DNA of 64,000 bases from NCBI GenBank assembly GCA_017514975.1, contig JAFWIF010000014.1:52070-116069 (forward strand), read 5' to 3'. Below, one piece after another: positions 15,801 to 63,060 of this stretch. Source of the stretch: Candidatus Saccharimonadota bacterium (GTDB lineage Bacteria; Patescibacteriota; Saccharimonadia; Saccharimonadales; Saccharimonadaceae). The translations under genes were made by a program, and so were the position numbers. A model generated the notes under the pieces. It saw only the letters and a program-made list of their open reading frames with translations, had not been told where the DNA came from and made no database searches. Each line of letters starts with the position of its first letter. Positions within the stretch are counted from its first letter, which is position 1.

Positions 15801-15817
15801 AGCGAAGATAAGGACAT
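12803..15817 (-). CDS. Composite surface protein: signal anchor, InlB-B/Listeria-Bacteroides repeats, a pilin-like Ig domain, an internal TM-basic loop-TM, and a C-terminal Fibrobacter-type (FISUMP) domain
   Basis: YVFNGWTT and YVFAGWHV repeat motifs; GDLANTSEYFRYIF; C-terminal DPRDNKSYTV...YGNLYNWYTA...CPKGWQLPS...FWSST...GLSVRCV. The RBS is AAGGAG with the ATG at 15817. Confidence 0.7.
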   Translation of the reverse strand: MSLSSLFCRARRQNSLSKSPFRGGVFRRTKKQKQFFCVVFASLVLLACSFLAFLFKDTRDNQSFAYGDVTSGTRLEENSALDYYLTVDYGTFSNPNDASGLVVVTDKIPDGLTFLAFGTEQALGCSNQSTLSKTYDASTRVATIKLTGLSETCTVKYEIKTKTPTLPTTVSRQDFFNTATIANQNGTFFSETVHAYIGDESSSDNYTLNYSYTGDAPVSAKLPASQTIQSGLSVQLPTPAPVDGYVFNGWTTTDATISNNTLVMPTKNLTLEGTWSKADIYKVSYVFDGRAPSSFALPSETNYAPGSIVNLISPLPQSTFDGYRLLSYTVQGATVEGNSATSNGSFVMPSGNVVVKIKFSDPPKTTLTLKSLVQGDLANTSEYFRYIFDFSDGIEGETYALSGLDQGSIRYGNGNISFVNPTTCTYGRICMVYLKHNQQLTLSNISTDTKYTINMSASDASYAVSPVDGSGRVANLFTVVVPQDYTSAVTDQRTAVLDYGSSATDAQASAYKENNQIVATWSKNSTPPTAAFTNIFPFIASGLLAGAVLSFFLFAKKFSWTKLAMSHLKSLRRSRFAPKRIVNPISIASCSKKTSFAANKTRKFIFRLLALSFLAGFGFAATKLVTPSNALPPSFSLKGVVFGTISSSDACTSIANMPSGNHYVVGTTVTIEKTPTCVGADYVFAGWHVVSPTDLTINNDSFIMPSADVTLYPTWEKLTVEKTMQGESWTPRGPTFGGITTMQEMTSAICAAETTPSVSARTTTTTHSTDASLVPTATLLDPRDNKSYTVSKLADGNCWMTQNLDLGDNSTEANPLVLTPQDSNVSQNFTMPAAQTKAGAAWNEGGSSNTTNIKHMYDFSQHATYADRATTYGNLYNWYTATAGTGLATMGSGEEADQSICPKGWQLPSNTGTKSYYNLLTTTYALNGSTGSTTMQNVPFSFPFSGYYYYTGSQYYQGSQGFFWSSTANGTSYAPSLYFGSSNVGPRNFYGHRADGLSVRCVAQ
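15745..15753 (-). repeat. G9 homopolymer (coding strand) inside the signal-peptide n-region; the frame is currently ON
   Basis: Counted directly as nine C on the plus strand. It encodes R-G-G in PFRGGVFRRTKK. Confidence 0.9.
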
Positions 15818-15867
15818 GGTGGAGACTCCTTGTTTTCGTATGTTTATTTTGACCTAATTGTATGCTT

Positions 15868-15928
15868 ATAGTAGCAAAATTCGTAGATTCCGTCAATGCT
15901 TGACTTTTTTGAATTTTTGTGCTATAAT
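15868..15928. promoter_or_regulatory. Back-to-back divergent promoters (cassette copy 1)
   Basis: Minus strand: TTGACG (15896..15891), 17 nt, TACTAT (15873..15868), then leader AGGTCAAAATAAACA (15855..15841). Plus strand: TTGACT (15900..15905), 17 nt, TATAAT (15923..15928). Confidence 0.5.
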
Positions 15929-19307: not shown

Positions 19308-19384
19308 TGGTGGGTCGTGCAGGAGTCGAACCTGCGACCTTATCTACGTCAAAGATACGCTCTAGCCAACTGAGCTAACGACCC
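19308..19384 (-). tRNA. tRNA-Val (anticodon GAC), CCA encoded
   Basis: The reverse complement folds as GGGTCGT/ACGACCC acceptor, TATCT-TTGACGT-AGATA anticodon arm, GCAGG-TTCGACT-CCTGC T arm. Confidence 0.9.
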
Positions 19385-19470: not shown

Positions 19471-22224
19471 TTATTTTGATTGGCGCAATCTTTGCGCGAT
19501 CAGTACGACGCCGCCGAGACTCGTGACGGCTACAGCAATCGCGCCGAGAGCGGGCCAGGCCTTGGTTGAGACAGTGAGACCAGTTGGAGGCGGGGCGGCC
19601 TTGGTGTTCGTGAAAGCGATGGAAATATCCGAGCCTAGAGAATTTATCGTGTAGCGTCGGCCGTTGGTACTAGTTTGTCCGACTTTGTAGCTTGTTTCGT
19701 AGCCGTCAGGGGCATAATCTACTTCTTCGATTTCAATCTTTGAGCCAGCCGGGAGAGTAGTGAGCTGTTTAATATTGCGATGCTTGAGCGTGAAGGTATA
19801 ACTGCCATCGTTGTTAGAAGTAAAGCCTTCGAAATTTGAGAGGTCGACAAGGTCACCGCTTCCGCCGTCTTTGGTAACCTTTATTTTATAGGTGAAATCT
19901 TTTGAGGTGTTGGCGAGGTCGCCTTTGACGAAGTTAGAGATTTCGAGGCCGTATGAAGACTTTGAGTTGACAAAAGTGGAAGTAATGTCGCTGTCGCCGA
20001 TAACGCCATGATCGTTGGTTTTCGAGGTCAGAGTCCAGCCTGTTTTGTTTTCTTCGATAATTTCATATTCATAGCCTTGCGGAAGCTGCAAGGTCTTGGT
20101 ACCGTTTTGCGGCAAGGAGAATGAATAGTAGCCGTTCTCATCGGGCTGACCAAAGAAAGAAGAGAGGTCGTATGGTTTTCTGTAGAGTAAACTAGATACT
20201 CCCTCGTTTCCTTCCGCGCCGCACACGAGGCTTGGACTTCTCCAACCATTTGGGTTCTCATACCAATAGCCGTCATCAGAATACCACTCACCGTATCCGC
20301 CAGCGCTATACCATTTATACTCGTTGATGTTTTTGCCATTGATATTTAGATCTATGGTACGCTGTAGTCCATTGAGGTAATTCCACATATCTAAAGCTTT
20401 CTCGAAGTCATCAGAATCACGAGTCTTGCTCTCACCCCAAACCGAGCGTCTATGCCCGCTCGCGGCGTCTATTAGTCTACCGTTAATCTTGGTGGTAGCA
20501 TCCGTAAGTCTTACCGTTATATTATGAGTAGAGCCATCATCCCCTTGGGAGTAAATATATTCCTCAAAATACACACAACCATAATCAAATGCTCTAACTT
20601 TATAATTAAATTGATCGCTCGTATTTATGTCGGTTTCTTTCTTAATAGTAAGATTTTGTTTGGGTATCTCTTCGAATACAACATTAATAATATAGTCCTT
20701 TTGTATATTGCTTAGACTATATAGACGATTCGTCTCGACAGACACATCGATGCCGACTCCGTCGACGGTTAAGCTTTTTATTCTGTATCCTTCGTTGGGC
20801 CGATAATATATATTCTTTGAGGCTCCGTAGGCAACGGTCGTAGATTCGGTAATTGTGCCATTAACGGCACTCGTAGTTATGTTGTACTTTGGAACGATTA
20901 TATACGGGTCAGCCGCTGTGCCGGTGCCACCGTCGTAGGTTGTACCGGGCCTTAGAGAGATGACTGGACGTACGCCGAGCAGAGAATAGTAGCCTGCAAG
21001 GTGGGTCGCCCAATCGTTCGTCATGGCGCCGCCTGGATTAAGACTAGCAACTGATACATACCTAACGTTAGGCACAGTATAGTGGCTTGGCGACATCGAC
21101 CAATAGGGCTCGCCCGTGTCACGGGCAGTGTTATTATTTATCATACTCATCTCGCTGGCGGTCGCTAATCCTATGGGGTAAGTTAGTTTTGCTTTTGTGT
21201 TTTCGACAGAAAATTGATCGGTCAAGTTCGTACAGCTATAATCGTTTGTAATGCCCGTAAACGTAAAATATGACCAAGTTCCGTTAGGATTCCAACCGCC
21301 AGAGTTGGTATTTTTTGGAGAACGATCATTGCAATAAACAGCGTCCTCTAAAAAGGCTGTGTATCCGGTTAAGTTGTTTCTGTACCAGTTATCGACTACC
21401 GTCTTGATAGCGCTATTGTTCGTATTAACATTATCTGCATAGAGCATATCGTGAATAGCTTGCTCAATGGTCTTACCGCCACTAAGTTCGATATACCAAT
21501 CGCTTCGGTGATAGTATCTTACGGTCTCACAAGTACCAGTACCGTTATTGCAGCTATAGTGATGAGTATTGTCTATGTATACGTCAGTATCAATCAAGGT
21601 ATATACGCCATTAGAATATGCGACTCCATTGCCAGCTAAAGTTCCGCTGGCGGGCGCGCCATACTTGTCTGGATATTGAACATTATACATATAACCAGCA
21701 TTAGCCAACGATGGAGTGCTAGCATTAGATATCCAAGTTTTGTTAATAATGCCTCCATAGGGCATACTGCACGTGGCTGAAGACGTGGAGTTGCCATTAT
21801 AAAGAAGTTTTATGCCGCCAGTATCGGTCGTTCTTATCATCTGCCAACACTTGCCGGCAAACACAACATTCCATTTATCCAAAAGCTGCTTGCCCTGCGT
21901 TGTGTCGTTTTCGATTGGGGTCGTAAAGTAATAGATGTCTTTTGGGCCTGCGCCAGCTAAAGTATCGTTGTGTGCGCCAGTATATTTGGCGGCGAGACCA
22001 CCTGTTTCGGCTTCGTTTTTAATAACGTTATAGAGGAGATTTTCGGGTTCGCTTGTATTGCTTGATTCGGCATGAGAATGACGAGTTGCGAGGAGAATTG
22101 CGCCAGTGGCGACGACGAGAAGGACGGAGAAAAGCGAAAAGAAAAGAAGTTTGCGTTTTTTGGTAAAGTTGCTGCTTCTTCTATGTGATATTAACCCCCC
22201 CCCATTACGCAAAAAGATTCCCAT
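19471..22224 (-). CDS. Large surface protein: Cys-rich N-terminal domain, pilin-like Ig domains, PPTG-type C-terminal sorting signal
   Basis: Start moved to the ATG at 22224 because the track start (TTG at 22296) is the promoter -35 box. Signal anchor KKRKLLFFSLFSVLLVV; GDLANTSKDFTYKIKV; C-terminus PPPTGL plus TM plus RLRQSK. Confidence 0.7.
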   Translation of the reverse strand: MGIFLRNGGGLISHRRSSNFTKKRKLLFFSLFSVLLVVATGAILLATRHSHAESSNTSEPENLLYNVIKNEAETGGLAAKYTGAHNDTLAGAGPKDIYYFTTPIENDTTQGKQLLDKWNVVFAGKCWQMIRTTDTGGIKLLYNGNSTSSATCSMPYGGIINKTWISNASTPSLANAGYMYNVQYPDKYGAPASGTLAGNGVAYSNGVYTLIDTDVYIDNTHHYSCNNGTGTCETVRYYHRSDWYIELSGGKTIEQAIHDMLYADNVNTNNSAIKTVVDNWYRNNLTGYTAFLEDAVYCNDRSPKNTNSGGWNPNGTWSYFTFTGITNDYSCTNLTDQFSVENTKAKLTYPIGLATASEMSMINNNTARDTGEPYWSMSPSHYTVPNVRYVSVASLNPGGAMTNDWATHLAGYYSLLGVRPVISLRPGTTYDGGTGTAADPYIIVPKYNITTSAVNGTITESTTVAYGASKNIYYRPNEGYRIKSLTVDGVGIDVSVETNRLYSLSNIQKDYIINVVFEEIPKQNLTIKKETDINTSDQFNYKVRAFDYGCVYFEEYIYSQGDDGSTHNITVRLTDATTKINGRLIDAASGHRRSVWGESKTRDSDDFEKALDMWNYLNGLQRTIDLNINGKNINEYKWYSAGGYGEWYSDDGYWYENPNGWRSPSLVCGAEGNEGVSSLLYRKPYDLSSFFGQPDENGYYSFSLPQNGTKTLQLPQGYEYEIIEENKTGWTLTSKTNDHGVIGDSDITSTFVNSKSSYGLEISNFVKGDLANTSKDFTYKIKVTKDGGSGDLVDLSNFEGFTSNNDGSYTFTLKHRNIKQLTTLPAGSKIEIEEVDYAPDGYETSYKVGQTSTNGRRYTINSLGSDISIAFTNTKAAPPPTGLTVSTKAWPALGAIAVAVTSLGGVVLIAQRLRQSK
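22195..22203 (-). repeat. G9 homopolymer in the signal-peptide n-region; the frame is currently ON
   Basis: Nine C on the plus strand. It encodes GGG in MGIFLRNGGGLISH. Confidence 0.9.
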
Positions 22225-22267
22225 CTGTTTTTTCTTTCTTTGTTTATTTTGACCTAAGCTTGGTTTT

Positions 22268-22328
22268 AGGATAGCATAGAGTTTTGATTCCGTCAATGCT
22301 TGACATTTTTTAGTTTTTGTGATAGGAT
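22268..22328. promoter_or_regulatory. Back-to-back divergent promoters (cassette copy 2)
   Basis: Minus strand: TTGACG (22296..22291), 17 nt, TATCCT (22273..22268), leader AGGTCAAAATAAACA (22255..22241). Plus strand: TTGACA (22300..22305), 17 nt, TAGGAT (22323..22328). Confidence 0.5.
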
Positions 22329-22334
22329 AGAAAG

Positions 22335-22371
22335 ATGAATGCCTCGAGGCGACGAGAGGTGAGGGTTTTTT
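22335..22371 (+). ncRNA. Candidate short hairpin-terminated transcript (copy 2)
   Basis: AGAAAGATGAAT, then a GCCTC-10 nt-GAGGT stem, then GAGGGTTTTTT. Confidence 0.25.
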
Positions 22372-22421
22372 GATAGTTTGGTTGAGTTATATGCTTGGTG
22401 CGAAGAGCGTTTTTGCGGACT

Positions 22422-24940
22422 TTAAGCTTTGCGCCTAATGAGAAAGATGGCGGCGAGGAGGCCAGCAAGGCTTGAGCCGAGAATAATGAAGGGGAGCTTG
22501 AGGGCAGATTTTGAGTGATCGGAAGTTTTTGGGTTAGAGTCTAGGGATTTCGGAGTAGTAGCCTGACTGTGCTCTATAGTCGTGGTGTTTTTTGAATCTT
22601 CGGTGATTTCAGTGTTTTGTGTAGGATTGTCTACAGGTTTTTCTGCGGGGGATTGATCTTTTTGCCAGTTAGCAGTGAAAGTTTTGTCGCCAGTAGTGCC
22701 TTTGGGGATTTGAAGCTGCTTTTGAGGAGGAGAGTTTGGGTCATCAGCGTCAGTCCAGCCGAGAAAAGTGTAACCTGGGCGGGCAGGAGTAGCGAGAGTG
22801 ATAGTGTCGGATTCGATAGTGTAGACAGAAGGATTGTCGGGGGAGTTGGTGGCGGGGCTGGTTGGGCCGTCTGGGCTAGAGGAATCGTCAGGATTAGCGG
22901 GGGCGTCATTGAGATTGTAGGTGATTTGATAGTTGATGGTCTCCCAAGTTGGCGCAATGGTGAGGTTTGAGGTGACACTATCGTAGGACTTGTTCCAAGC
23001 TTTGAAGGTATAGCCGGTTTTGGTGGGGCTGACGGGAGGGGTGGCGGAGGAGCCATAGGGAATGGTTTCGGTTTTTAAGGCAGTGCTTTCGTCATCAGTG
23101 AAAGTAACGGTGAAGATACGTTTATTGGCGAGGAAAAGCTTGACCCCCTCGGTGTCGGAATTTGAGATGGTGAATTCGGGACTGATGAGAGCCTCTTGAT
23201 CCTGGTCGTAACATTGAGTAGCAGAGTTCGGGCAGGAGTCGGCGCTAGCGGAGAGAGAGTAGACGGAACTAGCGGGGGCGGTCTGGACAAGGCGATAGGT
23301 GCCAGTGCCGAGGTTTTGGAAATCTACCTGACCGTCGGAATTGGTTTGGCGAGAGAGAGGATTGCTGTCGTTTGGAGTATAATCCTGCCAAGTGATATCG
23401 TTGCCAGTTCCCTGTTTGAGCTGAAGCTTTAAGGTTGCGTTTTCGAGAAGACGCTTGGTGTCGCTATCCGAAACGAAGGCGGAGACGGAGAAAGTTGGAG
23501 GAGTAACGATAGCGCTAGGATCGATACTTTCGATAGTGACGGTACGAGTGCTTGGCTTTGATGACACGCCGTTACGGGTAATGACGGCGGTCGACTGGAA
23601 GGTGCGGTCCTCTAGAGCGGTACCATAATCGCAAGCAACGTACGCGGTGCTGTATGGGTTTTGCCCCAATGCGCTATTTTCGCCAAATGCAGAGAGGTAA
23701 GCTTGGACGAGGCGGCCGTAATCCTCGGCGTCGGCGTAGCCGTTATTGATGTGGTACTTTGCGGCCTTGTCTGCCCATGCTTCGGCGCTTTGTTGCGGAG
23801 TGTCGATCCCGACACGACCATGATAGATAATAAAAGTCATAGAATCGCCGTTATTATAGTAGCCGTATTGGCGCGGAGTCGCGGTAACTCGAGATTTAAA
23901 ATCGCTATACGATTCGTTAGATGTGGGCTTTATTTCTGTGTATTCGCCGGTGATGGTGGCATAGTTGTAGTTAGAGCTTGATAAAGTGAGGTCGTCTAGG
24001 TCGTAAACTATACGAGCAGACGCAATAATTGAGTGGATATTCATAGCGATTGCATCTTGGCAAGTAATCTCGATGTAAGTATCGGACGGCTCTGGAGAAT
24101 AGCTGTCCCCTTCAGACTCGAAAAGACTTTTTTCGATAGCGTGCGCAGTGCCATCGACGTAATAGTAGACCGCTCTGTTATTGGATTTGGTAGAGAGGTT
24201 ATAGCCGTTGTGTATAGAGAGAGGATTAAGCGTGCGTGGATTAACGAAAAAGTTGATTGAGGTTTCGGGCTGATTGTTGAGACGAATTTGAGTATAACGA
24301 AAATCGTTGTTGCCGATTGGATGGAGAGTGCTACCTGTGTTGATGTGGATATTCTGCGCGCCAGAGCGCCCAGCCATGTTTTCATTAAAGACAAAGCGGA
24401 TAAGTGGTTCGCCGTCCGGAAAGACAGTATAAGAACCGACAGTCGTGCCGGATTCGCCAATAACAGGAACGGCGCCCGAAGCGACTCGCGAGACACTGCC
24501 CTTAGTAGACTTCAGGGCGATATCTACAGTATCGTTGCCAGTGAAGGTGGCGCCGTGCTTTAGGGACAAGTCTAATACTAGGCTCAGCGCGGTAGCTTCG
24601 GAAGTATTAGACTTGACCGGATAGTCGTCGGGATTCGTGGAAGCGTTTTCGCCAAGGATAGTGCTGATTTCGCCATTGGTAGCGCCAGTTAAGGTGTAAC
24701 TTTTAAGGGTTACTTCTGCTTCGAGAGACTGAGCAGAAGTAGCCGGGGCTATTAAAGCTACGAAGGAGAAAGATAAGGTCAAAATTGAGATAATGAAGAA
24801 TGGTTGAAGTTTGCGGAGTTTGAGAAGAATGTGGGGAGTTTGGATTTTTGGCTTTCTCGAGAAGCCAGATACTATGGTGTTTAGTAGACTTTTATACCCC
24901 CCCCCATGGAGATTAATGCGGTGCGAAATAGAGAGAACAT
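22422..24940 (-). CDS. MSCRAMM-like adhesin, phase-variable and currently frameshifted (OFF) at a G9 tract
   Basis: AAGGAG plus the ATG at 24940 opens MFSLFRTALISMGGG and stops 5 codons after the tract. The large ORF 22422..24782 is in the +1 frame relative to that ATG. It contains a Cna-B/SpaA-like domain, two Listeria-Bacteroides repeats, and NPKT plus TM plus RRKA. Confidence 0.65.
24897..24905 (-). repeat. G9 homopolymer that puts the adhesin gene out of frame
   Basis: Nine C on the plus strand. There are 158 nt between the upstream ATG and the first codon of the long ORF, which is 2 mod 3, so G10 or G7 would restore the frame. Confidence 0.9.
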
Positions 24941-24992
24941 GGCGTGGAGACTCCTTTGTTTTTATTGTTTATTTTGACCTTGTTATTGTTTT

Positions 24993-25092
24993 AGAGTAGC
25001 AGAGTTCTTTGATTACGTCAATGCTTGATAATTTGTTAGATTATTTTATTATAATGGTTTTGCTTGACATTTTTGGGGTTTTGTGATACAAT
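24993..25092. promoter_or_regulatory. Divergent promoters (cassette copy 3, with a duplicated plus-strand -35 region)
   Basis: Minus strand: TTGACG (25021..25016), 17 nt, TACTCT (24998..24993), leader AGGTCAAAATAAACA (24980..24966). Plus strand: TTGACA (25064..25069), 17 nt, TACAAT (25087..25092). Confidence 0.5.
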
Positions 25093-25098
25093 AGAAGG

Positions 25099-25147
25099 AT
25101 GTAGCGCCTCGAGGGAGCGAGAGGCGTGGGGTTTTGGTGGTTTTCGG
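25099..25147 (+). ncRNA. Candidate short hairpin-terminated transcript (copy 3)
   Basis: AGAAGGATGTAG, then a CGCCTC-10 nt-GAGGCG stem, then TGGGGTTTTGGTGGTTTT. Confidence 0.3.
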
Positions 25148-25156
25148 AGGCAAAGT

Positions 25157-27451
25157 TTAGCGACGGCGTTTGATGAGTTTATAGCCGAGAATGATACAGG
25201 GAGAAGAGAACAGAGCGGTAAAGATGGGGCCGAAAGGTGAGGCGGCGATGGTTTTGGGATTATCGACGGTAGCTTCTGGGTTTTGCTGAGCAGGTGCGGG
25301 GTTTTGAGTTTCCGGAGAGTCGGTCGAGCTAGAGCTTGAGGTCAAGTCTTGGTCGGCGGGATCAGCAGGAGTATTAGGGTCGGCGTCGTCAGGATTAGTA
25401 ATTTCGCCTGGATTGACTGGATTATTGGGATTAGTTGTGTCGTCGACGGGAGCGACATCTGGGAGCGAAAGTACTGGCCATGATTTGGTTTGATTTTCGT
25501 CGATATTTTCCCACGAATCGTTGATGACCGCCTCTGATTGATCTTGGTTGGTTAGCTGAAGGTATAGGCTGATCTGGTCATTATCGAAACTGGCTCGGGG
25601 GACTGACAACTCTGTAATGACAACACCATCACTGTTCTGGTTAATGGATTTTGTGAGCGACAAGGTATTGCTCGTGATAGAATTTTTAGTCGATGTGATC
25701 GTATGGGTCTTATTGGCATCTTGTAGTTCAATGCGAACCTGATCGCCGTTTGTAAAATCTTGGTCGTAGTGCTCGATGAGAAAATAAACTTTTTCGTGAT
25801 CGACGCAAGTTTTTAGATGGGCCTGAGCCTGGCTTTTTGAGCCCACAAATAAGGATTGTTGGACGTTTGACCAGTCGGATGGGGAGCCGTCTACTACGGG
25901 AGCGCAAACGTCGACAGTGTATGAATGGTTGAGGTGGACTTTACGATAATTGATGGAGCGAGGGGAGCTGGAATTAGTGCTAGAACTGGAATCGGGATAG
26001 ACCGCAAGGAGATCGTCGGCGTCATCTAGCTCGATAGAACCCCACGAGCCACCTTCTAGGACGAGCTGGTGGCTTGACTGAGGGTCGCCAATAATGCCGG
26101 CATAGAACTTTCCTTGCGTATTATAGCTAACGACGACTTCGCCTGATGGAAATTGCTGAACGTAAGGCGCGGCACCTGGAGCGGAAAACTGACTGAAAGC
26201 TTGGGAGTCGCCGGAGTAATTGGCGCGATTGCGAGGATCGTTTATTGCAGGATTTTCGCGTAAGCTATTTTCGCGCAAATCGGCAAGACTAATCCCAGAA
26301 GCGTTCTTGAAATCATAATTTTGACTATAAGTCGAGGTCGAGATACTATAGCCGCTCGGAAGCTGATAATTATCAGTCAGAGACCACATTTCGAAAGCAT
26401 AGAGAATGCGGCCGTCGATAAGCTTGGTTGCAACTGGCATCTGGGCAGTATAATAATTGACGTCTGAATTGGCAGTTTCGCTAAAAAGCGTACCGGTATA
26501 ATGGTAGGCTAAAGCGGAGCCCTGAGTCCAAGTTTTGCCGTTGTCGCTCGAGACGATAACGCCAACAGCGCCAGTGTTGTGTTTTACTAACTCATTGCCG
26601 TTCGCGTCCTTGACGCTAGCGCGATTATTGTTAATACCATTAGAAAACGCCATGACGATTTCGTCGCCATTTAAGATAGCGTGAGGCTCCCAAGGAGTAG
26701 TATTGTCGTGATAGATAGTTTGACCAATATCGAAACTGTGGCCTGTGGGGGTGCCATCAGGATTGATTGAAGGTATTATTTCCCCGCTGTCAAAAATTAG
26801 TTTTCCGGTTGATTCGTTGAGCCGAGCGCGTTTCGCAACGAGGCCATTTAGTTCGACGTGTGTACTTAAATGATGGAATGAACGATAAGCTGCATATACA
26901 AGCAGCGAGCCATCTTTCAAAGGAAGAGCGTCGCAGTTTTGGAAGACGCGAAAATCACGGCCAACGGCATTTTCTTGTACAAGGCTTGGCGCATGGTAGG
27001 CAAAGGATTCCCAAATAATTTCTGGGGTTGTCCAGGTTTTTAGATCCTTACTGGTAGAGTATTGAATCACAGTACCGTTTGAGTTTGGGTAAATACCGGT
27101 CACGCTAGGTGATGATGGATAGTTCCCGGCGTGCCAAAATAAAATATAGGTATCGCCTAGTTTTTTTAGGCGAGGATATTGTTTGATCAGGCGTTCATTT
27201 TCGGGGGTATTATCGTATAGAGACGAGAACGGGAGATGCCCTAAAGAGCGAAAATCTGGCTCTAGATTGGCGTTAGTTGCAACCGTCGCCTTGGCTGAGG
27301 AGTCAAAATTTGAAGCAAACAAAAAACCAAGACTGCCGATAAATACAAAGACTAGAACCGCAAATATGGTTTTTGGGATTTTAGACTGGAGGGGCGTTCT
27401 TTTAGCAGACTTCCTCTTTAAAAAATCGAATTCGCCATGCAAGCATCGCAT
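25157..27451 (-). CDS. Surface-anchored BNR/Asp-box beta-propeller glycosidase (sialidase-like) with a CBM9-like module
   Basis: Asp-boxes STSKDLKTW and SSDNGKTW; C-terminal DGSPSDWSNV...HEKVYFLIEH; a P/D/T-rich linker; NPKT plus TM plus KRRR. Confidence 0.6.
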   Translation of the reverse strand: MRCLHGEFDFLKRKSAKRTPLQSKIPKTIFAVLVFVFIGSLGFLFASNFDSSAKATVATNANLEPDFRSLGHLPFSSLYDNTPENERLIKQYPRLKKLGDTYILFWHAGNYPSSPSVTGIYPNSNGTVIQYSTSKDLKTWTTPEIIWESFAYHAPSLVQENAVGRDFRVFQNCDALPLKDGSLLVYAAYRSFHHLSTHVELNGLVAKRARLNESTGKLIFDSGEIIPSINPDGTPTGHSFDIGQTIYHDNTTPWEPHAILNGDEIVMAFSNGINNNRASVKDANGNELVKHNTGAVGVIVSSDNGKTWTQGSALAYHYTGTLFSETANSDVNYYTAQMPVATKLIDGRILYAFEMWSLTDNYQLPSGYSISTSTYSQNYDFKNASGISLADLRENSLRENPAINDPRNRANYSGDSQAFSQFSAPGAAPYVQQFPSGEVVVSYNTQGKFYAGIIGDPQSSHQLVLEGGSWGSIELDDADDLLAVYPDSSSSTNSSSPRSINYRKVHLNHSYTVDVCAPVVDGSPSDWSNVQQSLFVGSKSQAQAHLKTCVDHEKVYFLIEHYDQDFTNGDQVRIELQDANKTHTITSTKNSITSNTLSLTKSINQNSDGVVITELSVPRASFDNDQISLYLQLTNQDQSEAVINDSWENIDENQTKSWPVLSLPDVAPVDDTTNPNNPVNPGEITNPDDADPNTPADPADQDLTSSSSSTDSPETQNPAPAQQNPEATVDNPKTIAASPFGPIFTALFSSPCIILGYKLIKRRR

Positions 27452-27504
27452 CGTTCTGTCCTTTTTTGATTCTTTGATGTTTATTTTGACCTTGTTATTG
27501 TTTT

Positions 27505-27533
27505 AGAGTAGCAGATTTTGAGGATTTCGTCAA
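27505..27533 (-). promoter_or_regulatory. Cassette copy 4 promoter (unidirectional)
   Basis: TTGACG (27533..27528), 17 nt, TACTCT (27510..27505), leader AGGTCAAAATAAACA (27492..27478). The TGA stop of the upstream 1622-aa gene lies inside the -35 box. Confidence 0.5.
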
Positions 27534-30500
27534 TGCTTATTTTTAGCAAATACTTTACTGGAAACATAGATTGCGCATAGAGTAAATGCGCCGAACGCAG
27601 CAAGCAAGATGAGCGGTTTTTGATCTAAGGATACGCCAGTTATAACGGTCTCACCTTTATTGTTTATATATGTAACGCTTTGGTCTTCTTCTAATGGCTG
27701 TTTGGTGATAGTATTTCCCGTCGTAGTATCCCTAATAACACCGCCAGCCGTCTTGGCGATCTGATAACTCTCAGTGTATTCGGTGTCCGTTTCTACGATT
27801 GTGTATTTATAACCTCTGACGATATTTTTTATAGTCGCCGCTTCGTTGTGTTTGAGCTTGATAGTTGAGCCGTTATCGATTTCGGAAGACGAGCCATTTT
27901 TTTCTACGGTAAGCTTTCCTTCTAAAGGAGTATCATCGTCGTAAACAGTAATGCGATATTCAAATTCCCTATTAACGTCTGCCAAGCTACCGGTCACTTT
28001 CTTTTTGATAGTTAAATTATGTTTTATTTTTTCGTTTTGAATGTTTAAGGCGACTTCTTTTGTGGTGTTATTTCTCGCAATCACTACGGTTTTGTCCTCT
28101 ATCGATTGGTAATTTGCGGGAACTGCTTCGTGGAGAATATAGCTTCCTGCGGGAAGGTGCTCAAATTTAGCTTGCCCTAAGGTATCGGTATTTTTAGTGA
28201 CATTAAGCTCTTCGCCTAAATCGGAAGTTCCAGACAAAGTAAAGCTTACTCCAGACATCGCCTCACTGGTGTCTTTGTCCGTTTTATTAATCGTTAAATC
28301 ACCGTACGCTTTTGTGTTTGTTCTGGCCTCTTCTATGATGGGCATATAGTCGACTGATATAGAGTGGTTTTTGTGGACATCGTCAAAGACTACTCTGACC
28401 TTCTTAGGATTAACGCTGTCTTTGGTAAAGGTATATGTCTTGCCGCCAAAGACATAAGTAGCTACGCCGTCGCTAAACGATAGATTTTTAAACATTACGG
28501 TAATTCCATCAATTGTGATTTTTTCGATCTCCCAACCGTCGTCCGGTACCATAGCTAAGGTGTTTGAGTCGCCTATACCCATAGACACATCGCGCCGAAT
28601 TGGGCTCATTGAGCAATTGTCGAGATAATCATAGGCTTCGATATATAAATCGCCGCCAGTACCATGCGCCTGTTGAAGCCGAACGTAAACCGACGAATCG
28701 AACAAAGTTGTGCCGACGTTTCTAAGGTCATTTACCGTTGAACTACCAGTCCACCTTAGCGTAGAGCCTTTGGAGTCTAGAAGAACGGCAAACCCAGTAT
28801 CAAACGTACCGTTGTCAGCTCTTTTGGTGGTATATCTTTTTCCGCTTCGAGCAGCATAAGCGGTAGCATCTTGAATGGTTGAAAAACCGTTTGAGTTGTT
28901 ATTGGTTCCACCTATTTTTTTGCCAGCTTCGTCTCTCGTGCTGTGGTATGTAAAAGCGCTAAAGCGTATGCCGTCAGCATTTGATCCGTTAAACCTTCTC
29001 TCTGCATCGATCGCCATATCGCGCCCAAATACATAACCCTCGTAAATACTGCCAGTCATGCTTGCGTGGTCATACTTTGGAATTACGGCGAAACTTTTAG
29101 AACCAGATACAATCTCCATGCCCTCTGCATATTCGATGCCACCAGATCTCCTTCCCCAAACATTTTCGGCGCTTGCCAAATCTAAATCTTTAGCGGAATA
29201 CGAGATAATACCATCGACGGGATTATTGTTTTTATCTACCACCTGGATAGTAAATGTCTTAGAATTTCCTATGGCGTTGCGCATCTTGAACGTACCGTTC
29301 GCGGAATCAGTGTTTTTGTTGCTAGCGCTTGGGCTAAAAACGTACTGAGGCCATCTCATGGTTTCTCTACCGCCATTGTTAAACTCTATCTGAATGCTGC
29401 TGTTGAGGCTATTCGCATTTTCTTGGACGACATAGGGGACATTTTCGAGTTTATCAGTCGCCGATTCCATGGTCATTTCGTTAACCGTAAACACTACATC
29501 TCCGATTGACCCATCCGGCAATACGGCAGCATCATAATAAACAATCTGATAAATATATCCGTCTACGTCGTTGGTGATAACATTTTGTCCAGCATGTTCG
29601 CCAGTCTTATAATATGAGACTTTGGTGTTTCCATATTCTACTACGCTATCGTCGTTGTGCTCGGCGTCCGTAGTCGCGGTATCACCGTTGTTGATTAGCG
29701 CCGCATAGCCCTCGTCTGTTAACTGGCCAAATTCAGGAGTACCATATGCTCCTGGAGCGCCCACGCCTTTTATGTACGATTTTAATGACCCTAAATACGC
29801 AATCATACCATTATCGTCTGCGCGGCCCGTATATATATCGTCAGAAATCTTAGCTCCATCGACCCCGATTTCGCTATCGCCTTTTTTAACTAAATGGAAG
29901 GGGCTATTTTCTGGAAAAATGAGCGAGGCATTATTGAATTTGATTTTATTGCTGTTAATAAATACGTTTCCATACGGAAGAATTTTGGCAAAATCGTTAG
30001 GGTCAGAATCTAGATCTGTATGCGGTGGGCTGTTTTCTTGGATGGACGATTTTGCGTTCCCTCCAATATATAAGCCGCCATCAAGCTTTTTCTCATAATA
30101 GCTCTTGATAGTAGAATATGTCCCACTGTCGCTATCGTAATCATAGTATACATAATTTTCGTTGTTGTTATAGACTGCGCAAGCATCTTGGTTAGTTACG
30201 GTAGAGGAGCCCTCGTCTAGCGAAGAGCCGGTTGCATTAAAATTGACATCGTAGACCACGTCATCGAGTTCGTACCCAGACGGAGCTTCAATTTCTTGGT
30301 AATGATAGGCGCCAAGAGGTAAATCTTTAATCGTGTACTCACCGTTACCGTCAGTAGTAAACTCTGACTCTACCGACTGTCCGTCTAGCGTTTCTCCCCA
30401 GAAACGATATTTGGCGTTAGGGAGGAGAGTGTTATCGGTCGCGTCGCGTTTAGTTAATTTTAAGCTTCCTTTGGCCAAGTTATCTTCCATAACAACGGCA

Positions 30501-32398
30501 TCAAATGTTTCGCTTTGCTCTGTGTAGTTTTGTTTTGCTTCTTCACCGAGCGTCTCGTATGCTTTTTTGCTAATGACATCTCCTGTCTCGTTGTGCTTAT
30601 AGGTTGTGCGCGTTATGGTTTGGCCGCCCGACGTTATCTCGCCGTTGGACACCGTAAAGCTAACAGGGTTGGCCAATTTATATCCTGTCGGAGCAATCTT
30701 TTCGGCAAATTGGTATGTACCATTTTCTAGGAATAATTCGTAATACCCATCCACCGAACGAAATGACGCTACCGGCATTCCGCCTTGATTGATAATCATC
30801 CATGCATCTTCCAAGAAGTCTCCAGACTCTTTATCTACTTTGGCGAATTTGTATCTTGGCTTTATTTTATTTTTCATAATTACGGTCTTGTCGTCAACCT
30901 CTCCTTCGCCAATATATAATTTGCCATCACGCACAGAAAACTCTATGTCCTGCGCACCGCGATAACCGTTTGGTGCAGAAATCTCGTGAAGCGTATAGGT
31001 ACCGTCGGAAAGAGGCAGTACGTGTCCGCTACCATCCGTTTTCCATTGCGATTCTAATGAATTCCCTTCTAGCACCCTCATCACAGCATTAGACAGCGGC
31101 TCGCCATTTTCGTCGGTTAATTTGATAGTAATATCTACGGGATCTTGCGCGTTGACAAAGACGTGGGTTTTATCGGCGCTAAGCGTTCCGCTAGCCACAG
31201 ATAATCCTTTATCGCCATCGATACTATAAACATGCCACCCTGATGATTGAACCTCCTTAATCTCATATTCAAAGCCACTTGGGATATCGATTGTTTGATG
31301 GTTTTCCGAATTAGACTCTAGTGTAAACGTATATTCATTGTTGCCGCTAGGCGTTAAACCTTGGCGAGATAGGTCGACATAAGTCGTTGTTTCTGCTTGT
31401 GTTTTCCAGGCTTTTACTTTAAAAGTAAAATCTTGATCATGAAAGCCGCCCTTAGTCTTTTTTTCTACGGTTATTTTTTTACCAACATATTCGTTAGTGA
31501 AAGTCTTGGGGATGTTAGCCTGAACCGATTCGACTCGTAAACCGTTCAGCTCTATATCGCCAGCCCCGCTTAATCCCACCTGATAAGAAGAATTAGTTTC
31601 CGTTCCATTAAAAGTATAAGTATAACTATAAGGCACCCATCCGTCAGATTTATTTATAGTAATTGTTTTTGAAAAGATAGCCTTGCTCTGGCCGCTATCC
31701 CAAATTCTGATAAGGGCTTTTGCGGAATTATACGTCGAATCGACTGGGATTCTGACGTAGCCACTCAACATATATTCATTGCCATTTTTGTATGGTAGCT
31801 GGTTTTGCCCCCAATCTTTATTTCCGGTTGTATTGTTTAAGACTCTAAATACCGTTTCTTCATCAGTCGGCGTATCATTTAAAGAAACGATGCTTCCCGT
31901 ACCATTTCCGCCAGACCTAAGCGACCATCCACCAATAGGCCAAGTGTATCCGCCTAGGTGGTCGGCGTTTGGATTATTTGTATTCTTTAGAATGTTTTCG
32001 GTTGCGACAATGTTACCGTTGGCATCTCTGCTTACTTTGACGCTTATGTCGTAGCTATTAGGTGTGGCCCGGTATAACGGGTTGTCGTCTTCGGTTATCT
32101 TATAATAGTATATCTTTCCGACATCGGCATTTTTAAAAACAATCTTGTCGAAAGGAATGTTTTCGCCAATATTGCTCGTAGTGGTATTGGCCGGCAGGGG
32201 CCCGCCATTTGTACTACTAATGGTAAAATCGAACATGCCGTCTTCTAGGGTCTGACCGGTTAAGGCCTTGTTTAATGTTGGAGCCCACTCGACAGAAGTA
32301 GTACTAGCTCTAGCTTCAGAAGCGCCAAAAATGAAGCTGTTACACAACGCCAACAGCATGATAGCCAGACAGGCAAACCATGCTTTTTTATTCGCCAT
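27530..32398 (-). CDS. Giant (about 1622 aa) adhesin/pilin-like protein with isopeptide-type Ig domains, a CBM-like module and a large uncharacterised core
   Basis: AGGAGG lies 9 nt before the ATG at 32398. Signal peptide ...FGASEARA. FctA/Spy0128-like segment (GMFDFTISS...GKIYYYKITE), several SpaA/Cna-B-like repeats (GTYTLHEISAPNGY, GAYHYQEIEAPSGY, GSYILHEAVPANY). C-terminus VITGV plus TM plus KNKH. Confidence 0.7.
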   Translation of the reverse strand: MANKKAWFACLAIMLLALCNSFIFGASEARASTTSVEWAPTLNKALTGQTLEDGMFDFTISSTNGGPLPANTTTSNIGENIPFDKIVFKNADVGKIYYYKITEDDNPLYRATPNSYDISVKVSRDANGNIVATENILKNTNNPNADHLGGYTWPIGGWSLRSGGNGTGSIVSLNDTPTDEETVFRVLNNTTGNKDWGQNQLPYKNGNEYMLSGYVRIPVDSTYNSAKALIRIWDSGQSKAIFSKTITINKSDGWVPYSYTYTFNGTETNSSYQVGLSGAGDIELNGLRVESVQANIPKTFTNEYVGKKITVEKKTKGGFHDQDFTFKVKAWKTQAETTTYVDLSRQGLTPSGNNEYTFTLESNSENHQTIDIPSGFEYEIKEVQSSGWHVYSIDGDKGLSVASGTLSADKTHVFVNAQDPVDITIKLTDENGEPLSNAVMRVLEGNSLESQWKTDGSGHVLPLSDGTYTLHEISAPNGYRGAQDIEFSVRDGKLYIGEGEVDDKTVIMKNKIKPRYKFAKVDKESGDFLEDAWMIINQGGMPVASFRSVDGYYELFLENGTYQFAEKIAPTGYKLANPVSFTVSNGEITSGGQTITRTTYKHNETGDVISKKAYETLGEEAKQNYTEQSETFDAVVMEDNLAKGSLKLTKRDATDNTLLPNAKYRFWGETLDGQSVESEFTTDGNGEYTIKDLPLGAYHYQEIEAPSGYELDDVVYDVNFNATGSSLDEGSSTVTNQDACAVYNNNENYVYYDYDSDSGTYSTIKSYYEKKLDGGLYIGGNAKSSIQENSPPHTDLDSDPNDFAKILPYGNVFINSNKIKFNNASLIFPENSPFHLVKKGDSEIGVDGAKISDDIYTGRADDNGMIAYLGSLKSYIKGVGAPGAYGTPEFGQLTDEGYAALINNGDTATTDAEHNDDSVVEYGNTKVSYYKTGEHAGQNVITNDVDGYIYQIVYYDAAVLPDGSIGDVVFTVNEMTMESATDKLENVPYVVQENANSLNSSIQIEFNNGGRETMRWPQYVFSPSASNKNTDSANGTFKMRNAIGNSKTFTIQVVDKNNNPVDGIISYSAKDLDLASAENVWGRRSGGIEYAEGMEIVSGSKSFAVIPKYDHASMTGSIYEGYVFGRDMAIDAERRFNGSNADGIRFSAFTYHSTRDEAGKKIGGTNNNSNGFSTIQDATAYAARSGKRYTTKRADNGTFDTGFAVLLDSKGSTLRWTGSSTVNDLRNVGTTLFDSSVYVRLQQAHGTGGDLYIEAYDYLDNCSMSPIRRDVSMGIGDSNTLAMVPDDGWEIEKITIDGITVMFKNLSFSDGVATYVFGGKTYTFTKDSVNPKKVRVVFDDVHKNHSISVDYMPIIEEARTNTKAYGDLTINKTDKDTSEAMSGVSFTLSGTSDLGEELNVTKNTDTLGQAKFEHLPAGSYILHEAVPANYQSIEDKTVVIARNNTTKEVALNIQNEKIKHNLTIKKKVTGSLADVNREFEYRITVYDDDTPLEGKLTVEKNGSSSEIDNGSTIKLKHNEAATIKNIVRGYKYTIVETDTEYTESYQIAKTAGGVIRDTTTGNTITKQPLEEDQSVTYINNKGETVITGVSLDQKPLILLAAFGAFTLCAIYVSSKVFAKNKH

Positions 32399-32584
32399 AT
32401 ACAACTACCTCCTATTCCCTATGGTACTCTAAAAGTAACCATATCCTTTTAGATATTTTAGCACAGCAAGCGAATAGCACGCAAGTTGAAGTTGCGAAGA
32501 ACGGGCATATGAGCAGCTATGCGCATACTCTGGGCGCAAGAATTTTGCATTTTTTGAAGTTTTGCGGTATATTAGGTTATGATT

Positions 32585-32661
32585 GGGTCCGTAGCTCAGC
32601 TGGTTAGAGCACCTGCCTTTTAAGCAGGGTGTCGTGAGTTCAAGCCTCACCGGACTCACCA
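32585..32661 (+). tRNA. tRNA-Lys (anticodon TTT), CCA encoded
   Basis: GGGTCCG/CGGACTC acceptor, CCTGC-CTTTTAA-GCAGG anticodon arm, GTGAG-TTCAAGC-CTCAC T arm. Confidence 0.9.
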
Positions 32662-42187: not shown

Positions 42188-42248
42188 ATTATAGCACAAA
42201 ATCTAAAAAATATCAAGCATTGACGGTATCCTCAAAAACTGCTTAAAT
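42188..42248. promoter_or_regulatory. Back-to-back divergent promoters (cassette copy 6, plus-strand gene)
   Basis: Plus strand: TTGACG (42220..42225), 17 nt, TTAAAT (42243..42248), leader AGGTCAAAATAAA (42260..42272). Minus strand: TTGATA (42216..42211), 17 nt, TATAAT (42193..42188). Confidence 0.5.
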
Positions 42249-42298
42249 AAAATTACAATAGGTCAAAATAAAAAATACAAAAATACAAGGAAACATCT

Positions 42299-63009: not shown

Positions 63010-63060
63010 TTAATACAGAACACCGCTTAATGGCGCAACCTCTAAAGAAACGGGGTTATT

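What the first reader, a model, noticed from the sequence alone, without database searches (positions are those of the whole stretch)
24783..24940. An adhesin gene is switched OFF at a G9 tract, and one extra G restores a complete signal peptide
A good RBS (AAGGAG) and the ATG at 24940 open MFSLFRTALISMGGG. The frame then runs through a nine-G homopolymer (plus-strand C at 24897..24905) and stops 5 codons later (GGT ATA AAA GTC TAC TAA). The 786-codon ORF that follows (22422..24782) has only a TTG start and begins in the middle of a hydrophobic segment (TLSFSFVALIAPATSAQ), so it lacks an n-region. I counted 158 nt between the ATG and that ORF, which is 2 mod 3. With G10 (or G7) the reading becomes MFSLFRTALISMGGGYKSLLNTIVSGFSRKPKIQTPHILLKLRKLQPFFIISILTLSFSFVALIAPATSAQ..., a full basic n-region, h-region and AxA-type cleavage site. 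This is the classic signature of slipped-strand phase variation, known from Neisseria, Campylobacter and Mycoplasma. I am not aware of it being described for CPR/Saccharibacteria surface proteins.
Basis: partly seen in the sequence, partly recalled or inferred. Interest (0 to 1): 0.88.

Follow-up and report, generated by a model that had tools for sequence, protein, structure and literature searches.

The report
Poly-G switches on Saccharibacteria surface-protein genes
A rumen Saccharibacteria genome carries three identical nine-G runs just after the start codons of three neighbouring surface-protein genes (two in frame, one out of frame), which is the sequence signature of random on/off "phase variation", not reported for this phylum in the literature I could search; actual switching has not been observed.

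Summary
On the minus strand there is an AAGGAG ribosome-binding site, an ATG at 24940, a G9 run at 24905..24897 and a TAA five codons later. The 786-codon ORF (22422..24782) is in the +1 frame, and G10 or G7 fuses the two.

The 64-kb window has no other G/C run of 7 or more (about 0.03-0.05 runs of 9+ expected). All three lie on the same strand, 21-64 nt after the ATG of anchored surface-protein genes that share one promoter/leader cassette. Genes a and b are in frame; gene c is out of frame.

GGG is the rarest Gly codon here. The sequence between ATG and run is unrelated in the three genes, so the run itself appears conserved.

Independent assemblies (ENA, Logan, NCBI) all show G9, so an assembler artefact is unlikely, but no length polymorphism was seen either.

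Homologues of gene b in a 29%-GC gut Firmicute have a poly-G run in the same signal-peptide position. There, orthologous loci differ between samples (G8, G9, G10).

Saccharibacteria reportedly lack MutS/MutL.

Verdict: probable slipped-strand contingency loci, a new member of a known kind. Switching is inferred, not shown.

The parts
24897..24905 (-). G9 homopolymer in gene c. It lies 35 nt after the ATG at 24940 and puts the long ORF out of frame (OFF). G7, G10 or G13 would be ON.
24881..24940 (-). Truncated reading frame from the true start codon: MFSLFRTALISMGGGIKVY, then TAA.
24951..24956 (-). Shine-Dalgarno AAGGAG, 10 nt before the ATG. Gene a has the same AAGGAGTCTCCAC context.
22422..24896 (-). 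Body of gene c, open from directly after the tract to the stop. The listed 786-aa ORF starts at TTG 24782. It contains InlB B-repeats, a SpaA-like domain, and a C-terminal NPKTS motif followed by a hydrophobic segment and RRKA tail.
24993..25021 (-). Predicted promoter of gene c: -35 TTGACG (25021..25016), a 17-nt spacer, -10 TACTCT (24998..24993). It is part of the cassette shared by five genes. This is a prediction only.
24966..24980 (-). Conserved leader motif AGGTCAAAATAAACA, with five copies in the window (four exact, one with one mismatch), each before a surface-protein gene.
15745..15753 (-). G9 tract of gene a, 64 nt after the ATG at 15817. It is in frame (ON) and read as AGG GGG GGG GTA.
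12803..15817 (-). Gene a, a 1004-aa surface protein with InlB B-repeats, DUF7601 and a Fib_succ_major domain.
22195..22203 (-). G9 tract of gene b, 21 nt after the ATG at 22224. It is in frame (ON) and read as GGG GGG GGG. A second ATG overlaps the tract and would be in frame at G10.
19471..22224 (-). Gene b, a 917-aa surface protein. Its N-domain is shared with gut Firmicute proteins. It also has DUF7601 and a C-terminal PPTG motif followed by a hydrophobic segment and basic tail.
25157..27451 (-). Gene d. It has the same promoter/leader cassette, a signal peptide and an NPKT anchor, but no G tract. It serves as a family member for comparison.
42299..45850 (+). Gene e (GH43 + GDSL + InlB repeats). 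It has the same promoter/leader cassette and an NPKT anchor, but no G tract.

Best explanation
The G9 run is a hypermutable simple-sequence repeat, that is, a contingency locus. During replication, slipped-strand mispairing adds or removes a G. This moves the long ORF of gene c into or out of frame with its only credible start (SD AAGGAG plus the ATG at 24940).

At G9, the state in every available assembly, translation stops after 19 codons. The anchored surface protein then lacks its n-region and half of its hydrophobic core, so it is not made or not exported (OFF). At G10 or G7, an 839/838-aa precursor with a full signal peptide is made (ON).

Gene c is one of three such switches. Genes a and b are ON at G9. 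Together they would let a clonal population of this Saccharibacteria display up to eight combinations of surface proteins, presumably to vary attachment to host bacteria or exposure to phages and the animal host.

Shown here: the tracts, their frames, their non-random number and placement, the paralogous promoter and signal-peptide architecture, and the reproducibility of G9. Inferred: mutability, reversibility, the selective purpose and adhesin function.
For: 1. Only three G/C runs of 7 or more occur in 64 kb. All are exactly 9 bases and on the same strand, against about 0.03-0.05 expected. None occur in 12 kb of further flank. None occur in about 100 kb fetched from the closest relatives, which is roughly 40 kb of non-redundant sequence.
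2. Each run lies 21-64 nt after the ATG of a surface-protein gene that carries the same promoter/leader cassette.
3. The runs are in different codon phases within non-homologous flanks. GGG is the rarest Gly codon (9.2%), and the only GGG-GGG pairs among 86 Gly-Gly dipeptides lie inside the tracts. The DNA run, not a peptide, is therefore what is conserved.
4. The G10 product of gene c matches the paralogues' N-terminal plan. The SD/ATG context is homologous to that of gene a.
5. The body of gene c is an intact open frame of 786 codons plus 38 upstream codons, so it shows no sign of decay.
6. G9 is reproduced in the ENA and Logan assemblies examined, from several runs. The NCBI record encodes the same 786-aa (c) and 1004-aa (a) proteins and a 941-aa call of gene b that differs only in its TTG start. 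The probable source study used PCR-free Illumina libraries (PMC8199421). The link from this sample to that study is inferred from the record name.
7. Homologues of gene b's N-domain in a 29%-GC gut Firmicute have a poly-G run in the signal-peptide n-region. Orthologous loci differ in length: G9 vs G10, and G10 vs G8. The flanks of the G9/G10 pair are otherwise identical apart from one SNP in 232 nt.
8. Saccharibacteria are reported to lack MutS and MutL (PMC8406219). In Campylobacter and Helicobacter, the same deficiency accompanies unstable poly-G tracts (established knowledge).
Against: - No tract-length variation was seen in this organism. All contigs from at least three sequencing runs carry G9 at all three loci, although these are consensus sequences only.
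- The ON (G10) protein is not in the 15-billion-protein collection.
- Gene c has no orthologue, and its relatives lack the whole island. Conservation or polymorphism of this particular tract therefore cannot be tested.
- That all three tracts are exactly 9 is compatible with selection for a mutable length. It is also what one would see if the tracts were rather stable.
- The absence of MMR was not checked in this genome.
Confidence: 0.65

Rival explanations
1. Gene c is a recently and permanently inactivated pseudogene. A one-off indel at a fragile run killed a gene that is no longer needed, and no switching is selected for.
For: - Every assembly has the OFF length.
- No ON allele is known.
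- Gene c is an orphan in a lineage-specific island of fast-evolving genes.
Against: - The 2.4-kb body and the 38 codons between the tract and the TTG are free of further stops or frameshifts.
- The promoter, leader, SD and ATG are intact and match expressed-looking paralogues.
- Two sister genes keep the same uninterrupted G9 in frame, which a lineage avoiding frameshifts would be expected to interrupt with synonymous GGC/GGT codons.
Confidence: 0.15
2. Protein c is expressed from the G9 template without any DNA change. Either -1 ribosomal frameshifting on G GGG GGG or RNA-polymerase slippage on the run yields some full-length protein.
For: The run is in the correct register for tandem -1 slippage (AT-G GGG GGG-GGT). 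The resulting product would be identical to the G10 product (derived). Homopolymer runs of 9 or more are known sites of transcriptional slippage, mainly A/T runs (established knowledge).
Against: - The downstream RNA has only weak structure (-8 kcal/mol, z = -2.0). It is a 5-bp hairpin that begins 11 nt after the run, so it is not a convincing stimulator.
- The same run in genes a and b is in frame. Efficient slippage there would be harmful.
- In the Firmicute homologues the length itself varies at the DNA level.
Confidence: 0.08
3. This is a sequencing or assembly error. The real tract is G10 and the gene is simply intact.
For: Homopolymers are the commonest site of indel error. All assemblies may derive from the same or sister Illumina libraries, so a systematic error would be shared.
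Against: - Two different assemblers (ENA, Logan) and at least three runs give G9 in the DNA examined, and the NCBI record encodes the same 786-aa gene c product.
- The two sister G9 tracts are read in frame by the same data. A systematic one-base undercall would have broken them.
- The probable source study used PCR-free libraries on NovaSeq (the link is inferred).
Confidence: 0.05
4. The protein really starts at TTG 24782 (or at a rare ATT/ATA codon upstream of it). The ATG-G9 mini-ORF is a separate leader peptide.
For: NCBI and the other gene callers annotate the 786-aa TTG form.
Against: - There is no SD before the TTG.
- The TTG product would begin inside the hydrophobic core, with no basic n-region.
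- The 38 codons upstream are open and look like the paralogues' n-regions.
- The SD and ATG are homologous to the start of gene a.
Confidence: 0.05

Closest known systems
Neisseria pilC (poly-G) and opa (CTCTT) phase variation in the signal-peptide-coding region (own knowledge; opa: Murphy et al. 1989, listed as ref. 51 in PMC11032452)
   Same: A repeat tract lies within the signal-peptide-coding part of a surface or adhesion protein gene. Its length sets the reading frame (translational ON/OFF). Several paralogous genes switch independently.
   Different: The organism is a different phylum with a Gram-positive-like envelope and C-terminally anchored proteins. No switching has been measured here, and the proteins are unrelated.
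Campylobacter jejuni and Helicobacter poly-G/C contingency loci (own knowledge; see also PMC2823697)
   Same: G8-G11 runs are strongly over-represented relative to base composition. They are concentrated in surface-structure genes, in organisms that lack MutS/MutL-type mismatch repair. G9 is a typical length.
   Different: Those genomes have about 20-30 tracts, mostly in glycosylation and modification enzymes. Here three tracts are seen in 64 kb, all in structural surface proteins with a common promoter cassette. The genome-wide count is unknown.
Poly-G-bearing surface-protein family in a 29%-GC gut Firmicute
   Same: The N-terminal domain is homologous to that of gene b (40-47% identity). The poly-G run lies in the signal-peptide n-region. 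Paralogues share a conserved promoter and 5' end.
   Different: It is a different phylum, and the sequence around the tract is not homologous to the window's. Real length polymorphism (G8/G9/G10) is documented there but not in the window organism. A second ATG in another frame makes two of the three lengths potentially productive.
Homopolymer-tract phase variation in Mycobacterium tuberculosis (PMC10334774) and Bordetella pertussis (PMC1891110)
   Same: Reversible frameshifts occur at G/C homopolymers inside coding sequences. They were detected by comparing many genomes.
   Different: Those cases rest on thousands of genomes or on experiments. Their tracts are mostly 7-10 bases in high-GC genomes, where such runs are much less improbable.
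Diversity-generating retroelements and hypervariable repeat genes in CPR bacteria (DGRs: own knowledge; Gracilibacteria PTD-repeat gene: PMC6851277)
   Same: These are mechanisms that diversify surface proteins in CPR episymbionts.
   Different: They change the protein sequence or the repeat number. They do not switch expression ON/OFF through a homopolymer frameshift.

Membership tests
SSR (slipped-strand) phase-variable contingency locus | An uninterrupted simple repeat at or above the length at which slippage becomes frequent (about 7-8 or more for G/C runs) | tested here: met
   G9 at 24897..24905, plus G9 at 22195..22203 and 15745..15753.
SSR (slipped-strand) phase-variable contingency locus | The repeat is placed so that a length change alters the frame or the promoter of a gene | tested here: met
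   The run lies 35 nt after the ATG. G9 gives a stop after 19 codons. G10 or G7 gives an 839/838-aa protein with a full signal peptide.
SSR (slipped-strand) phase-variable contingency locus | The repeat is over-represented relative to composition and coding needs | tested here: met
   Three runs of 9 or more were observed against about 0.03-0.05 expected, with none of length 7 or 8. GGG accounts for 9.2% of Gly codons, and GGG-GGG pairs occur only in the tracts.
SSR (slipped-strand) phase-variable contingency locus | Tract-length polymorphism between strains or within a population at the same locus | tested here: inconclusive
   All contigs of this organism (ENA, NCBI and Logan, from at least three runs) are consistent with G9, and no G10 protein is on record. 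The feature is met in the homologous Firmicute family.
SSR (slipped-strand) phase-variable contingency locus | High-frequency, reversible ON/OFF switching of the phenotype | not testable with these tools
   This needs cultures, deep amplicon or HiFi reads, or proteomics.
SSR (slipped-strand) phase-variable contingency locus | The gene class is typical of contingency loci (surface-exposed, host or phage interaction) | tested here: met
   The genes encode InlB B-repeats, SpaA, DUF7601 and Fib_succ_major domains, with an N-terminal signal peptide and a C-terminal hydrophobic anchor with a basic tail.
SSR (slipped-strand) phase-variable contingency locus | Weak or absent mismatch repair (a supportive feature, not an obligatory one) | not tested
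   Literature only: no MutS/MutL was found in Saccharibacteria (PMC8406219). No mutS or mutL is seen among the window's ORFs, but 64 kb cannot show absence.
-1 programmed ribosomal frameshift site | A slippery heptamer X XXY YYZ in the zero-frame register | tested here: met
   AT-G GGG GGG-GGT. A -1 slip gives MGGGYKS..., identical to the G10 product.
-1 programmed ribosomal frameshift site | A stable stimulatory hairpin or pseudoknot 5-9 nt downstream | tested here: not met
   The minimum free energy is -8 kcal/mol over 107 nt (z = -2.0). A 5-bp stem starts 11 nt after the run.
Sortase-anchored (LPXTG-type) Gram-positive surface protein | An N-terminal Sec signal peptide | tested here: met
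   This is present only in the G10/G7 frame: a basic n-region, a hydrophobic core at residues 45-70 and APATSAQ. The assessment is by hydropathy and inspection, since no SignalP was available.
Sortase-anchored (LPXTG-type) Gram-positive surface protein | A C-terminal sorting motif (LPXTG or a variant), a hydrophobic segment and a positively charged tail, plus a cognate sortase | tested here: inconclusive
   The hydrophobic segment and the RRKA tail are present. The motif is NPKT[S/I/A] in genes c, d and e, and PPTG in gene b; it is not LPXTG. No sortase gene is present in the window.

The most novel reading that the evidence does not exclude
Saccharibacteria are tiny episymbionts without MutS/MutL repair. 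They may run a multi-locus poly-G 'phasotype' system on a lineage-specific island of anchored surface proteins, so that a clonal population continually samples combinations of host-attachment proteins. The same design, a poly-G run in the signal-peptide n-region behind a conserved promoter cassette, recurs in gut Firmicutes that carry a homologous adhesion domain. This points to convergent evolution, or horizontal spread, of a common gut-commensal strategy that has gone unnoticed because metagenome pipelines annotate the OFF alleles as shorter intact genes.
Probability: 0.45. Interest if true: 0.75.

Novelty: new member of a known kind. Interest (0 to 1): 0.6.

Why it matters
How CPR/Saccharibacteria episymbionts choose, keep and change their bacterial hosts is an open question. 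Their attachment proteins are largely unknown. A set of stochastic ON/OFF switches on surface proteins would give candidates for those attachment factors. It would also offer a mechanism for host-range bet-hedging and for evasion of phages or the immune system in a phylum where none has been described.

The hypothesis is directly testable with existing reads. There is a practical point as well. Gene callers and NCBI annotate the OFF allele as a normal 786-aa protein with a TTG start (and gene b with a spurious 941-aa TTG start). Such switches are therefore invisible in MAG catalogues. The polymorphic Firmicute loci found here show that the phenomenon can be mined from public metagenomes.

Tried and rejected
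- **Orthologue comparison of gene c.** The repaired 839-aa protein finds only itself among 5.8 billion clusters, so tract lengths at orthologous loci cannot be compared.
- **Promoter/leader pattern scans.** The genome-contig scan gave only a chance hit in a Sangeribacter contig. The metagenome-contig scan gave one genuine relative, L013, with no G tract.
- **Synteny anchor via BipA.** The closest relatives are only 83-84% identical. They lack genes a, b, c, d and f and have no G/C run of 7 or more.
- **Walking beyond the window ends.** This added about 12 kb and found no further tracts.
- **Exact look-up of the G10 protein.** It is absent. The second member of gene b's cluster is merely NCBI's 941-aa TTG call, not a length variant.
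- **Rfam.** Only four tRNAs were found; the leader motif matches no known RNA family.
- **PDB sequence search of gene c.** No match.
- **Downstream RNA structure for frameshifting.** It is weak.
- **Markov simulation.** A first simulation timed out and was replaced by an analytic estimate.
- **Literature.** No paper linking Saccharibacteria, CPR, Patescibacteria or TM7 with SSR phase variation was found. The hits concerned nanopore homopolymer errors, host phase variation, or a Gracilibacteria repeat gene.
- **Structure prediction of gene c.** Not attempted. With no homologues the model would be unreliable, and it would not bear on the switch.
Full report
**1.

On the minus strand an AAGGAG lies at 24956..24951, 10 nt before the ATG at 24940. 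The frame reads MFSLFRTALISM, enters a run of exactly nine G (24905..24897), and ends at a TAA (24883..24881) five codons later. The 786-codon ORF (22422..24782) is in the +1 frame. In that frame there is no ATG, GTG or TTG between the upstream stop and the TTG at 24782. That TTG has no Shine-Dalgarno sequence and lies inside a hydrophobic segment. The ATG-to-TTG distance is 158 nt. Adding one G or removing two gives an 839/838-aa protein with a long basic n-region, a hydrophobic core (residues 45-70) and APATSAQ.

**2.

The window (44.7% G+C) contains only three G/C runs of 7 or more. All three are exactly 9 bases and all are G on the minus strand: 15745..15753, 22195..22203 and 24897..24905. 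The run-length spectrum falls geometrically (18399, 3976, 509, 122, 34, 3 for lengths 1-6), is empty at 7 and 8, and then has three runs at 9. A first-order model or extrapolation of the spectrum predicts about 0.03-0.05 runs of 9 or more.

Each run lies just after the start codon of a large minus-strand gene:
- Gene a (12803..15817): run 64 nt after the ATG, in frame.
- Gene b (19471..22224): run 21 nt after the ATG, in frame.
- Gene c: run 35 nt after the ATG, out of frame.

The three runs occupy different codon phases (A-GG GGG GGG G-TA in gene a, GGG GGG GGG in gene b, and ATG-GGG GGG GG-T in gene c). The sequence between ATG and run is not alignable among the three genes. GGG is the rarest glycine codon (108 of 1172, 9.2%), and the only GGG-GGG pairs among 86 Gly-Gly dipeptides are those inside the tracts. 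What is conserved is therefore a DNA homopolymer, not a peptide.

**3. The genes form a family of surface proteins with one promoter cassette**

Five genes (starts at 15817-, 22224-, 24940-, 27451- and 42299+) share three elements: AAGCATTGACG (a -35 box), a 17-nt spacer to a TAnnnT -10 box, and the leader motif AGGTCAAAATAAACA. Chance expectation for the two motifs is 0.35 and 0.22 matches. Three of the five genes carry G9.

Their domains are those of Gram-positive surface proteins: InlB B-repeats, SpaA-like, DUF7601 and Fib_succ_major, plus GH43 and GDSL in gene e. All have an N-terminal hydrophobic segment after a long basic n-region. All but gene a also end in a hydrophobic anchor with a basic tail; gene a has such an anchor internally (residues 530-556) and none at its C-terminus. 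The N-termini follow one plan (M..LF.R, then K/R-rich, then hydrophobic), and gene c fits it only in the G10/G7 frame. Gene c's SD-ATG context (AAGGAGTCTCCAC..ATG) is homologous to that of gene a. 'Adhesin' remains an inference.

**4. Not an assembler artefact, but no polymorphism either**

The protein is NCBI MBR3163937.1, 'InlB B-repeat-containing protein [Candidatus Saccharibacteria bacterium]'. Independent contigs all show G9 at every tract they cover. They include:
- ENA ERZ28655869 scaffold_118.
- Logan SRR12529289.
- Logan SRR31077494, which covers gene a.

A further Logan contig of the same organism (SRR12529294) covers only the window's left flank, not the tracts.

The record name points to the ruminant gut study PMC8199421, which used PCR-free libraries on NovaSeq. 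The link from this sample to that study is inferred. The G10 protein is absent from the 15-billion-protein collection. The consensus state is thus robustly a-ON, b-ON, c-OFF. Population heterogeneity could not be examined.

**5. Relatives**

Gene c has no homologue other than itself. The nearest BipA sequences are 83-84% identical. Their loci, from bovine and ruminant metagenomes, have UvrC-(small gene)-SecG-SBP5 adjacent to one another. They carry none of genes a, b, c, d or f, and they have no G/C run of 7 or more in about 100 kb fetched (roughly 40 kb non-redundant). The tract-bearing genes are therefore lineage-specific insertions. The b-c-d-f block (19471..32404) lies between two tRNA genes.

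**6. Comparative evidence from a homologous family**

The N-domain of gene b has 40-50% identical homologues in many gut and rumen proteins, some named 'Bacilli bacterium' by NCBI. The N-termini of the best hits differ exactly around a 'GG'. Their DNA is 29% G+C and comes from human-gut metagenomes, three Hadza samples plus one further ENA sample (L016). It shows a poly-G run in the signal-peptide n-region behind a conserved promoter and 5' end.
- Locus A is G9 in L014 (full-length call) and G10 in L015 (truncated call). The two differ otherwise by one SNP in 232 nt.
- Locus B is G10 in L016 and G8 in L017, where the gene is called from a second ATG in another frame.

This is genuine tract-length polymorphism at orthologous loci, in the same protein family and at the same functional position, although in another phylum.

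**7. Context for mutability**

A comparative study found no MutS or MutL in Saccharibacteria (PMC8406219). By analogy with Campylobacter and Helicobacter (established knowledge), a G9 run should then be highly unstable. This was not verified for this genome.

**8. Mechanism proposed**

Slipped-strand mispairing at the run changes its length. Gene c is productive at G7, G10 or G13. Genes a and b are productive at G6, G9 or G12. Gene b may also be productive at G10, through an ATG that overlaps the tract. The consensus phasotype is ON/ON/OFF. My confidence is about 0.65 that the tracts are functional, selected, hypermutable switches.

**9. Rivals**

- Fixed pseudogene (0.15). This is countered by the intact 2.4-kb body, the intact expression signals, and the retention of uninterrupted G9 in the sister genes.
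- Expression by -1 frameshifting or transcriptional slippage (0.08). The heptamer G GGG GGG is in register and would give the G10 product, but the downstream structure is weak, and the same run is in frame in genes a and b.
- Sequencing error (0.05). This is countered by several assemblies and runs, and by the two sister tracts being read in frame.
- A true TTG start (0.05). There is no SD, and the resulting signal peptide would be truncated.

**10. Comparison with what is known**

Functionally this resembles Neisseria pilC and opa (a repeat inside the signal-peptide-coding region) and the poly-G contingency loci of Campylobacter and Helicobacter. The sequence-level membership criteria are met: tract length, position, over-representation and gene class. 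Polymorphism is inconclusive for this organism, and reversibility is untestable here.

Searches of 8 million papers found nothing that links Saccharibacteria, CPR, Patescibacteria or TM7 with SSR-mediated phase variation. The known CPR diversification devices are DGRs and a hypervariable repeat gene (PMC6851277).

**11. Verdict**

The finding is a real, non-random feature and a new member of a known kind. It is of moderate to high interest because it nominates switchable surface proteins in an episymbiont phylum, and because it can be tested at once on existing reads.

Noticed in passing
window 15841-15904(-), 22241-22304(-), 24966-25029(-), 27478-27492(-), 42212-42274(+); also L013:858-913: A conserved promoter/leader cassette precedes five surface-protein genes: AAGCATTGACG, 17 nt, TAnnnT, then AGGTCAAAATAAACA near the predicted 5' end of the mRNA. 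Genes c and d share 38 identical nt here, which is where the Logan contigs break. One related copy in a JGI metagenome contig also precedes a secreted protein. The role of the leader motif is unknown, and it has no Rfam match.
   Followed up: partly
L014:4041-4049, L015:3992-4001, L016:3953-3962, L017:4012-4019: A 29%-GC gut Firmicute (three Hadza metagenomes plus one further ENA sample, L016) has two paralogous giant surface-protein genes, homologous to the N-domain of gene b. A poly-G run lies in the signal-peptide region and differs between samples: G9/G10 at one locus and G10/G8 at the other. Two ATGs in different frames lie upstream of the run. This looks like an undescribed phase-variable family.
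   Followed up: partly
window 12803-15817(-), internal ATG at 14125: Gene a reads as an in-frame fusion of two surface-protein modules. A PPTA motif, hydrophobic anchor and KK tail (aa 530-556) are followed, with no stop codon, by a second signal peptide (MSHLKSLRRSRF...FAATKLVTPSNA) and a Fib_succ_major domain. Either a stop codon was lost or internal initiation occurs.
   Followed up: partly
window 22422-22560(-), 25157-25290(-), 45720-45850(+): The C-termini of genes c, d and e share NPKT[S/I/A], then about 10 aa, a hydrophobic segment and an R/K tail. Gene b has PPTG instead. This may be a lineage-specific sortase sorting signal. No sortase gene is in the window.
   Followed up: no
window 19311-19384(-) and 32585-32658(+), flanking 19471-32404: The b-c-d-f surface-protein block lies between two tRNA genes and is absent from the closest relatives (BipA 83-84% identical). 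In those relatives a small holin-like gene occupies the UvrC-SecG gap that gene a fills here. This looks like a lineage-specific genomic island.
   Followed up: partly
window 25064-25092(+) and 22300-22328(+): The -35 box of the cassette sits in a palindrome (GTCAAGCATTGAC). This creates strong promoter-like sites on the opposite strand (TTGACA-17-TACAAT, 11/12 matches with an upstream TG) that point antisense into the upstream gene. Upstream of gene c the element appears split by a roughly 38-nt insertion flanked by TCAAGCA.
   Followed up: no
window 19471-22296(-): NCBI annotates gene b as 941 aa from a TTG that lies inside the -35 box of its own predicted promoter (MBR3163936.1). ATG 22224 (917 aa, as called by ENA and Logan) is the credible start. 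Gene c is annotated as an intact 786-aa protein and is not flagged as frameshifted.
   Followed up: yes
window 60037-63525(+); L020: A YobI-like P-loop NTPase and a 154-aa ORF are followed in L020 by type I R-M genes (N6_Mtase, Methylase_S). L020 is a 37.8%-GC contig recovered separately from another animal's sample. This is probably a mobile defence island.
   Followed up: no
window 19471-22224(-), aa 50-440: The N-terminal domain of gene b is 40-50% identical to domains repeated in hundreds of rumen and gut 'Bacilli bacterium' proteins. It has no Pfam family. This suggests a shared or horizontally exchanged adhesion module between Saccharibacteria and Firmicutes.
   Followed up: partly
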